IMG/VR virus record: IMGVR_UViG_3300027805_000012
Coordinates: 4,421 to 68,420 of that record
DNA length: 64,000 nucleotides
From: a virus
Direction: 5' to 3' (one strand)
Shown: positions 51,454-51,539 of the stretch, one piece after another
Layout of the letters: each line of letters opens with the position of its first letter
How positions within the stretch are numbered: the stretch's first letter is position 1
Position numbers and translations under genes: made by a program
Notes under the pieces: model-generated
The model's input: the letters and a program-made list of their open reading frames with translations, nothing else
Databases searched by the model: none
Told to the model about the DNA's origin: nothing

Positions 51454-51539
51454 CCCTCAGACTCCGAACTGGTTGCGGAACCGGACTTTTAATCCGGCGG
51501 CGTAAGCCCTTGTGGGTTCGAGCCCCACCTGAGGGACCA
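51454..51539 (+). tRNA. tRNA with Lys(TTT) anticodon and class-II-like long variable arm
   Basis: ccgga-ctTTTaa-tccgg, variable hairpin ggc-gtaa-gcc, A73, CCA. Confidence 0.85.

What the first reader, a model, noticed from the sequence alone, without database searches (positions are those of the whole stretch)
51454..51539. Lys(UUU) anticodon on a long-variable-arm (class II) tRNA body
tRNA-Lys is normally class I. Here a ggc-GTAA-gcc variable hairpin and A73 give a Leu-like body with a UUU anticodon. tRNA-Lys(UUU) is the target of PrrC and PARIS AriB, so this may be a nuclease-resistant Lys tRNA, or a Leu-charged tRNA that misreads AAA. The array has three Lys-anticodon tRNAs.
Basis: partly seen in the sequence, partly recalled or inferred. 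Interest (0 to 1): 0.68.

Follow-up and report, generated by a model that had tools for sequence, protein, structure and literature searches.

The report
Long-armed phage lysine tRNA
This giant-phage gene is a real lysine tRNA carrying an extra hairpin arm that textbooks reserve for leucine, serine and tyrosine tRNAs; it belongs to a widespread phage family that I could not find described, most likely still carries lysine (not leucine), and may help it survive bacterial tRNA-cutting defences.

Summary
Confirmed: 51454-51539 is an 86-nt tRNA with a UUU anticodon, a 14-nt variable region (3-bp hairpin), A73 and encoded CCA. It is base-identical in two other assemblies and lies in a jumbo-myophage tRNA array.

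It is not a one-off. Long-arm tRNA-Lys occurs in phiCbK, CcrRogue, Serratia BF, at least 119 viral-contig pattern hits (about 6% of matching viral Lys-UUU genes) and 40 GTDB loci, mostly tRNA arrays.

The Leu reading is not supported. A20a, U8, G12-C23 and the Leu arm geometry are missing, and the body scores as Tyr-like or long-arm Lys. AAA codons of this phage align to Lys. Long-arm Asn, Cys, Trp and Thr tRNAs keep their own identity bases. In five actinobacterial MAGs a long-arm gene is the only UUU reader found, one at the locus of a relative's normal gene.

Nuclease evasion is plausible but untested. Arms are enriched in AriB/OLD-target isotypes (OR about 5), and this gene has the AriB-dampening C16 and C41, but it keeps the UAAU site.

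The scan already reported this class on other genomes. New here: the sole-UUU-gene evidence and the Leu-exclusion tests.

The parts
51454..51539 (+). tRNA-Lys(UUU) gene with long variable arm, 86 nt, CCA encoded
   Evidence: ARAGORN; identical in L286 and L287
51454..51460 (+). Acceptor stem 5' strand (C1-G72, pairs with 51529-51535)
   Evidence: sequence
51461..51480 (+). A8-C9 linker and D arm: A14, A15, C16, G18G19, U20a (not Leu A20a), G21, C12-G23, G13-C22; A8C9 subfamily shared with L025, L027, L123, L044, L090
51481..51497 (+). Anticodon arm; UUU at 51488-51490; U36-A37-A38-U39-C40|C41 (AriB-type site with C41)
   Evidence: AriB rules from bioRxiv 10.1101/2025.02.04.636281
51498..51511 (+). 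14-nt variable region: C44, 3-bp GGC/GCC stem with GUAA (GNRA) loop, two unpaired bases, U48 (Tyr-type geometry)
51512..51528 (+). T arm
51536..51539 (+). Discriminator A73 and CCA
49647..52467 (+). Surrounding tRNA array (17 ARAGORN calls plus tRNA-like genes); this gene is its only UUU reader; no Leu, Ser or Tyr gene called
49901..49975 (+). Class I tRNA-Lys(CUU), companion isoacceptor
30922..32040 (+). tRNA nucleotidyltransferase (CCA-adding enzyme) gene; context
   Evidence: PHROG 2244 E 5e-88, Pfam PolyA_pol
44696..45328 (+). RNA ligase gene; context (possible tRNA repair)
   Evidence: Pfam PF09414 E 1.7e-26

Best explanation
A functional phage tRNA-Lys(UUU) of a widespread long-variable-arm family. 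Shown: intact cloverleaf with the full LysRS identity set (UUU anticodon, A73), in a jumbo-phage tRNA array; a paired arm across the family; a body distinct from Leu. Inferred (strong, about 0.85): host LysRS charges it with lysine and it reads AAA/AAG during infection. Inferred (weaker, about 0.5): the remodelled body (extra arm, changed D loop and core, C16, C41) lowers recognition by host Lys/Thr/Asn-targeting tRNA nucleases such as Toprim AriB/OLD, PrrC or Schlafen types, so that lysine decoding continues when host tRNA-Lys(UUU) is cut. At the same time it avoids LeuRS (no A20a), SerRS (no G73) and TyrRS (no G34, C1-G72).
For: Lys identity is the anticodon triplet plus A73 (PMC9976931); both are present. 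Long-arm versions of other isotypes keep their own discriminator: Asn G73 17/18, Cys U73 6/6, Trp G73 7/7, Met A73 10/10, Thr G1-C72 11/12, so the arm is added to cognate tRNAs. Long-arm Lys bodies form their own class: 153/165 classified as Lys and 0 as Leu, leaving out the anticodon arm and T arm. The A73 + A15-U48 + A20a set is in 105/115 Leu but 3/165 long-arm Lys. In five actinobacterial MAGs the long-arm gene is the only UUU tRNA found, while relatives have one class I copy; L245 sits between the same flanks as the class I gene of L310; AAA there aligns to K in 7 of 10 positions, never L or Y. In this phage, AAA aligns to K at 8/8 conserved columns. In 73 of 98 arrays it is the only Lys-UUU gene in the fetched stretch. 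Arm enrichment in Asn/Thr(UGU,CGU)/Lys(CUU): 40/256 vs 43/1180 other class I isotypes, OR 4.9; OR 6.0 in loci not selected for an arm; Asp 0/72. AriB targets are Lys-UUU, Thr-UGU and Asn-GUU, and U16C and A41C reduce cleavage; OLD cuts a similar set.
Against: No charging or cleavage data exist for any long-arm phage tRNA-Lys that I could find. The AriB recognition motif UAAU, including U39 (whose change abolishes cleavage), is kept; C41 and C16 are common in short-arm Lys-UUU too, so they are not arm-specific. Arms also occur on Cys, Trp, Met and His tRNAs, which are not AriB targets. Enrichment counts are not phylogenetically independent. A8 breaks the usual U8-A14 pair, which could weaken function. 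The MAGs are incomplete, so a missed class I copy is possible. The host and its LysRS class are unknown.
Confidence: 0.5

Rival explanations
1. A working lysine tRNA whose arm is tolerated but not protective: a neutral insertion, a stability or processing feature, or a body inherited from an anticodon-switched Tyr-type gene that then adapted to Lys.
For: The window body scores about equally on Tyr and long-arm Lys profiles. Arms appear on many isotypes. L263 holds near-identical short and long Lys-UUU copies, so arms are easily gained. The UAAU site is retained.
Against: The isotype skew (Asn 16/81, Thr-UGU 11/72, Lys-CUU 12/87 vs Asp 0/72, Ala 0/60, Pro 0/60, Val 0/51) and the conserved pairing (119/166 with at least 3 WC pairs vs 30 in shuffles) suggest selection. 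The class is rare in cells outside arrays.
Confidence: 0.3
2. A decoy: a tRNA-shaped RNA showing a Lys anticodon loop that binds or titrates anticodon nucleases (or Ro60/repair proteins) and is poorly used in translation.
For: The array holds several non-decoding tRNA-like genes. The AriB paper suggests viral tRNAs may act as competitors. In 25 of 98 arrays a class I Lys-UUU coexists. A8 is non-canonical.
Against: All stems are perfect, CCA is encoded, and identity elements are intact. It is the only UUU gene of this array. Family members appear to replace the cellular gene in actinobacterial MAGs.
Confidence: 0.1
3. A Leu- (or Tyr-) charged missense tRNA that inserts Leu/Tyr at AAA codons, like nematode nev-tRNAs.
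For: A73, A15-U48, G18G19 position and G21 match tRNA-Leu; bacterial LeuRS ignores the anticodon; nev-tRNA-Gly decodes GGG as Leu (PMC4033280). The arm geometry and C1-G72/A73 resemble some phage tRNA-Tyr.
Against: A20a (essential in E. coli), U8, G9, G12-C23 and G13-A22 are absent. A15-U48 with A73 is common in ordinary phage tRNA-Lys (79/212). The Leu profile scores lower. AAA codons are used at conserved Lys sites and none at conserved Leu sites. Tyr needs G34 and, in bacteria, G1-C72 (G34 from own knowledge).
Confidence: 0.07
4. Sequencing or assembly error in the anticodon of a Leu/Tyr gene.
For: No Leu, Tyr or Ser gene is called in the array.
Against: Identical in two further assemblies; Tyr GUA to UUU needs two changes; relatives L025, L027 and L123 carry the same subfamily with UUU.
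Confidence: 0.01

Closest known systems
Phage tRNA-Lys(UUU) variants that escape defence nucleases (T5 vs PARIS AriB: PMC11464382, bioRxiv 10.1101/2025.02.04.636281; SP15 vs PrrC170: PMC11555353)
   Same: Phage-encoded Lys-UUU tRNA in a tRNA cluster; shares two of the three T5 changes that reduce AriB cleavage (C16, C41).
   Different: T5 tRNA-Lys has a 5-nt variable loop and A39; this one has a 14-nt arm and keeps U39. Resistance is untested here.
Bacterial class II tRNA-Leu
   Same: Long arm, A73, A15-U48, G18G19 after four D-loop bases, G21.
   Different: No A20a, U8, G9, G12-C23 or G13-A22; two unpaired bases 3' of the arm; Lys anticodon loop.
Bacterial and phage tRNA-Tyr (class II)
   Same: Arm geometry (1 base 5', 2 bases plus 48 3'), A73, U35; body profile scores about equal to long-arm Lys.
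   Different: UUU rather than GUA; C1-G72 rather than bacterial G1-C72.
nev-tRNAs and other non-canonical V-arm tRNAs of eukaryotes (Hamashima et al., as reviewed in PMC4033280 and PMC7954030)
   Same: Class II arm on a tRNA with a class I anticodon.
   Different: nev-tRNAs keep Leu recognition elements and insert Leu; the phage family keeps cognate identity bases and lacks Leu ones; viral/prokaryotic, not nematode.
allo-tRNAs (Mukai et al., PMC5389517)
   Same: Long V arm, unusual anticodons, some in phages.
   Different: allo-tRNAs have 8/4 or 9/3 acceptor branches, G73/U73 and Ser/Ala charging; this one is 7/5 with A73.

Membership tests
tRNA-Lys (LysRS identity) | Anticodon U/C34-U35-U36 | tested here: met
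   UUU at 51488-51490
tRNA-Lys (LysRS identity) | Discriminator A73 | tested here: met
   A at 51536; PMC9976931
tRNA-Lys (LysRS identity) | Class I shape (4-5 nt variable loop) | tested here: not met
   14-nt variable region
tRNA-Lys (LysRS identity) | Charged with lysine | not testable with these tools
   Indirect support only:
Bacterial tRNA-Leu | A73, A15-U48, G18G19 | tested here: met
   also common in ordinary phage tRNA-Lys
Bacterial tRNA-Leu | A20a in the D loop | tested here: not met
   U20a; A20a in 91% of phage Leu; essential per PMC9976931
Bacterial tRNA-Leu | U8, G9, G12-C23, G13-A22 core and Leu arm geometry | tested here: not met
   A8, C9, C12-G23, G13-C22, three bases 3' of the stem; Leu profile lower by 5-6 log units
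Bacterial tRNA-Tyr | Long arm with Tyr geometry, A73, U35 | tested here: met
Bacterial tRNA-Tyr | GUA anticodon and G1-C72 | tested here: not met
   UUU and C1-G72
allo-tRNA / tRNA-Sec-like | 8/4, 9/3 or 8/5 acceptor branch; G73/U73 | tested here: not met
   7/5 branch, A73; RF01852 33.7 bits, below cut-off 47
nev-tRNA | Leu recognition elements retained and Leu inserted at a non-Leu codon | tested here: inconclusive
   Leu elements incomplete and no AAA-to-Leu signal; charging not testable
Nuclease-resistant phage tRNA-Lys (T5 type) | U39A, A41C, U16C changes | tested here: inconclusive
   C41 and C16 present, U39 retained
Nuclease-resistant phage tRNA-Lys (T5 type) | Resists cleavage and rescues infection | not testable with these tools
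   needs in vitro and plaque assays

The most novel reading that the evidence does not exclude
Large phages use an added variable arm as a general, modular shield on Lys, Asn and Thr (and other class I) tRNAs against tRNA-cutting immunity while keeping cognate charging, and some bacteria have adopted the long-arm tRNA-Lys as their only AAA reader.
Probability: 0.35. Interest if true: 0.8.

Novelty: new variant of a known kind. Interest (0 to 1): 0.55.

Why it matters
Reviews state that in prokaryotes the long variable arm is specific to Ser, Leu and Tyr tRNAs and that bacterial tRNA genes are structurally uniform (PMC4033280). A common viral family of long-arm Lys/Asn/Thr tRNAs with cognate identity breaks that rule. 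It would show that LysRS tolerates a class II body. It gives a direct, cheap test of the hypothesis that phage tRNAs are reshaped to escape anticodon nucleases: delete the arm and measure cleavage. This particular gene is an ordinary member of that family, which the scan has reported many times, so the interest lies in the family rather than in this copy.

Tried and rejected
Sequencing error: rejected. Selenocysteine or allo-tRNA: rejected. Recoding of AAA in the phage: no signal (only 15 AAA columns, so low-level mistranslation is not excluded). BLAST of the array found no close cultured relative. An exact pattern for the window's D arm found no other viral contig or locus. Ro60-based look-ups of relatives (L288, L289) and L316 did not reach a tRNA array, and the genome search does not hold those records. 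My recollection that T5 tRNA-Asn has a long arm was not borne out. The OLD paper screened 245 coliphage tRNAs against AriB, but its supplement is not held, and the sources of the phage tRNA-Lys genes in Azam et al. Supplementary Fig. 14 are not readable, so I could not check whether long-arm Lys genes were among the rescuers. Seven literature searches on this design found no description of long-arm phage tRNA-Lys; most subscription journals are not covered.

Full report
Observation. ARAGORN calls tRNA-Lys(ttt) at 51454-51539. The cloverleaf is fully paired: 7-bp acceptor stem with C1-G72, A8-C9, 4-bp D stem, 5-bp anticodon stem with loop CU-UUU-AA, a 14-nt variable region (C44, a 3-bp GGC/GCC stem with a GUAA loop, two unpaired bases, U48), a canonical T arm, A73 and CCA. 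The 12.7-14 kb stretch that holds it is base-identical in an ENA and a JGI assembly, so the loop is not an error. RNAfold's MFE mispairs the V and T regions. Across 166 long-arm Lys genes, 119 have a stem of at least 3 WC pairs, against 30 in shuffles. The 'third Lys tRNA' is a non-canonical gene with an insert.

Context. The contig is a 69.8-kb fragment of a large myophage (gp46/gp47-like nuclease, baseplate hub, virion protein). Relatives by gp46 lie on contigs up to 383 kb. It encodes a CCA-adding enzyme, an RNA ligase and Ro60. The gene lies in an array of 17 called tRNAs and is the only UUU reader there. AAG outnumbers AAA about 2:1 in the phage's genes.

It is one of many. BLAST against cultured phages hit long-arm Lys or Asn genes: phiCbK (both Lys isoacceptors, 88 and 91 nt as annotated), CcrRogue, Serratia BF, Erwinia pEp_SNUABM_01 and CcrColossus. 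A pattern scan gave at least 119 viral hits, nearly all true long-arm tRNA-Lys. In a length-neutral scan 5 of the 80 listed loci had a long arm, about 6%. Among 185,579 GTDB species only 48 loci matched; 40 are real long-arm genes and 28 of these lie in clusters of six or more tRNAs. Related phages (L027 shares NUDIX and HNH genes at about 60%; L123 the CCA enzyme at 52%) carry the same A8-C9, C1-G72 subfamily with UUU. Earlier notes of this scan describe the same family on other genomes. I found no paper describing it.

Leu, Tyr or Lys? E. coli Leu identity needs A73, A15-U48, G18G19 and A20a (PMC9976931); Lys identity is the anticodon plus A73. It lacks A20a, U8, G9, G12-C23 and G13-A22, which occur in 68-98% of phage long-arm Leu genes, and its arm has Tyr-type geometry. 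The full Leu set is in 105/115 Leu genes, 3/165 long-arm Lys genes, and not here. Position profiles that exclude the anticodon arm and T arm separate long-arm Lys from Leu cleanly (153/165 correct, none called Leu). They score this gene Tyr -52.9, Lys -53.9, Leu -58.7, Ser -68.2. Tyr charging would need GUA and, in bacteria, G1-C72.

Three independent lines favour lysine. (i) Long-arm versions of Asn, Cys, Trp, Met and Thr keep their own discriminator or first pair, so arms are added to tRNAs that stay cognate; L263 holds near-identical short and long Lys-UUU copies. (ii) In the phage's gp46 and Ro60, AAA aligns to Lys at all 8 well-conserved columns and never occupies a conserved Leu column. 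(iii) In five actinobacterial MAGs the only UUU tRNA found is long-armed, whereas relatives usually have one class I copy. In L245 it lies between the same flanking genes as the class I gene of L310. AAA codons in these genomes align to Lys in 7 of 10 cases and never to Leu or Tyr. The MAGs are incomplete and partly related, so this is strong but not final.

Why the arm? AriB cuts Lys-UUU, Thr-UGU and Asn-GUU between positions 40 and 41 and also reads the D loop; U39A abolishes cleavage, and A41C and U16C reduce it. P2-OLD cuts a similar set, and PrrC and RorSlfn5 target Lys-UUU. In my sample, leaving out the searched Lys-UUU, arms occur in 40/256 Asn/Thr(UGU,CGU)/Lys-CUU genes versus 43/1180 other class I genes (OR 4.9; OR 6.0 in loci not chosen for an arm), and in none of 72 Asp genes, although AspRS is in the same subclass as LysRS and AsnRS. 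This gene has C16 and C41 but keeps U36-A-A-U39. The skew is what a nuclease-evasion model predicts, but the counts are not independent, arms also occur on Cys, Trp, Met and His, and no cleavage data exist. I put lysine function at about 0.85 and a protective role of the arm at about 0.5.

Comparison and verdict. It works most likely like the T5 and SP15 tRNA-Lys that rescue infection, but with a class II body those lack. It resembles nev-tRNAs and allo-tRNAs in having an unexpected arm but fails their defining features. It is a real, new variant of a known kind. The family is interesting and directly testable, and this copy is a typical member. Interest 0.55.

Noticed in passing
L243, L244, L245, L250, L252, L268 (actinobacterial MAGs, G001-G005): A conserved long-arm tRNA-Lys(UUU) is the only UUU tRNA found in these genomes and in L245 sits at the locus where a relative (L310) has the class I gene: apparent adoption as the cellular gene.
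   Followed up: partly
window 50924-51053: tRNA-shaped gene with a Lys-CUU anticodon loop and a ~50-nt insert between D and anticodon arms; Rfam tRNA 27.3 bits.
   Followed up: no
window 50237-50335, 51061-51170, 51262-51361, 50146-50230, 52649-52748: Several tRNA-framed genes with replaced or extended anticodon domains, one with two T arms, interleaved with real tRNAs.
   Followed up: no
window 49983-50055: CCA-ended element with a CU-AAG-AC loop on a 4-bp stem, possibly a divergent short-arm tRNA-Leu(AAG); CUU is the phage's commonest Leu codon. Not called by ARAGORN.
   Followed up: no
window 48554-48682: 42-aa leader ORF upstream of the array with 3 AAA vs 1 AAG, against a 1:2 ratio in the genome, and almost no Leu/Ser/Tyr/Pro/Cys codons.
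   Followed up: partly
L021, L024, L028, L035, L041, L046, L055, L066, L070, L130, L142, L174, L190, L221, L229: Half of the phage tRNA-Ile(UAU) genes have a 20-24 nt variable region with a shared CAGAUU(A)G motif: a distinct long-arm or insert class.
   Followed up: no
L295:4978-5052 (minus strand): A related phage's class I tRNA-Ile(GAU) has almost the same acceptor stem as the window's long-arm Lys gene (CCCUC.G / CUGAGGG-A).
   Followed up: no
phage tRNA-Leu genes: About a third of phage tRNA-Leu genes have a short variable loop, the mirror image of the long-arm Lys genes.
   Followed up: no
window 61679-63289 and 44696-45328, 30922-32040: Ro60/TROVE, RNA ligase and CCA-adding enzyme genes near the array: a tRNA repair and quality-control kit.
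   Followed up: partly
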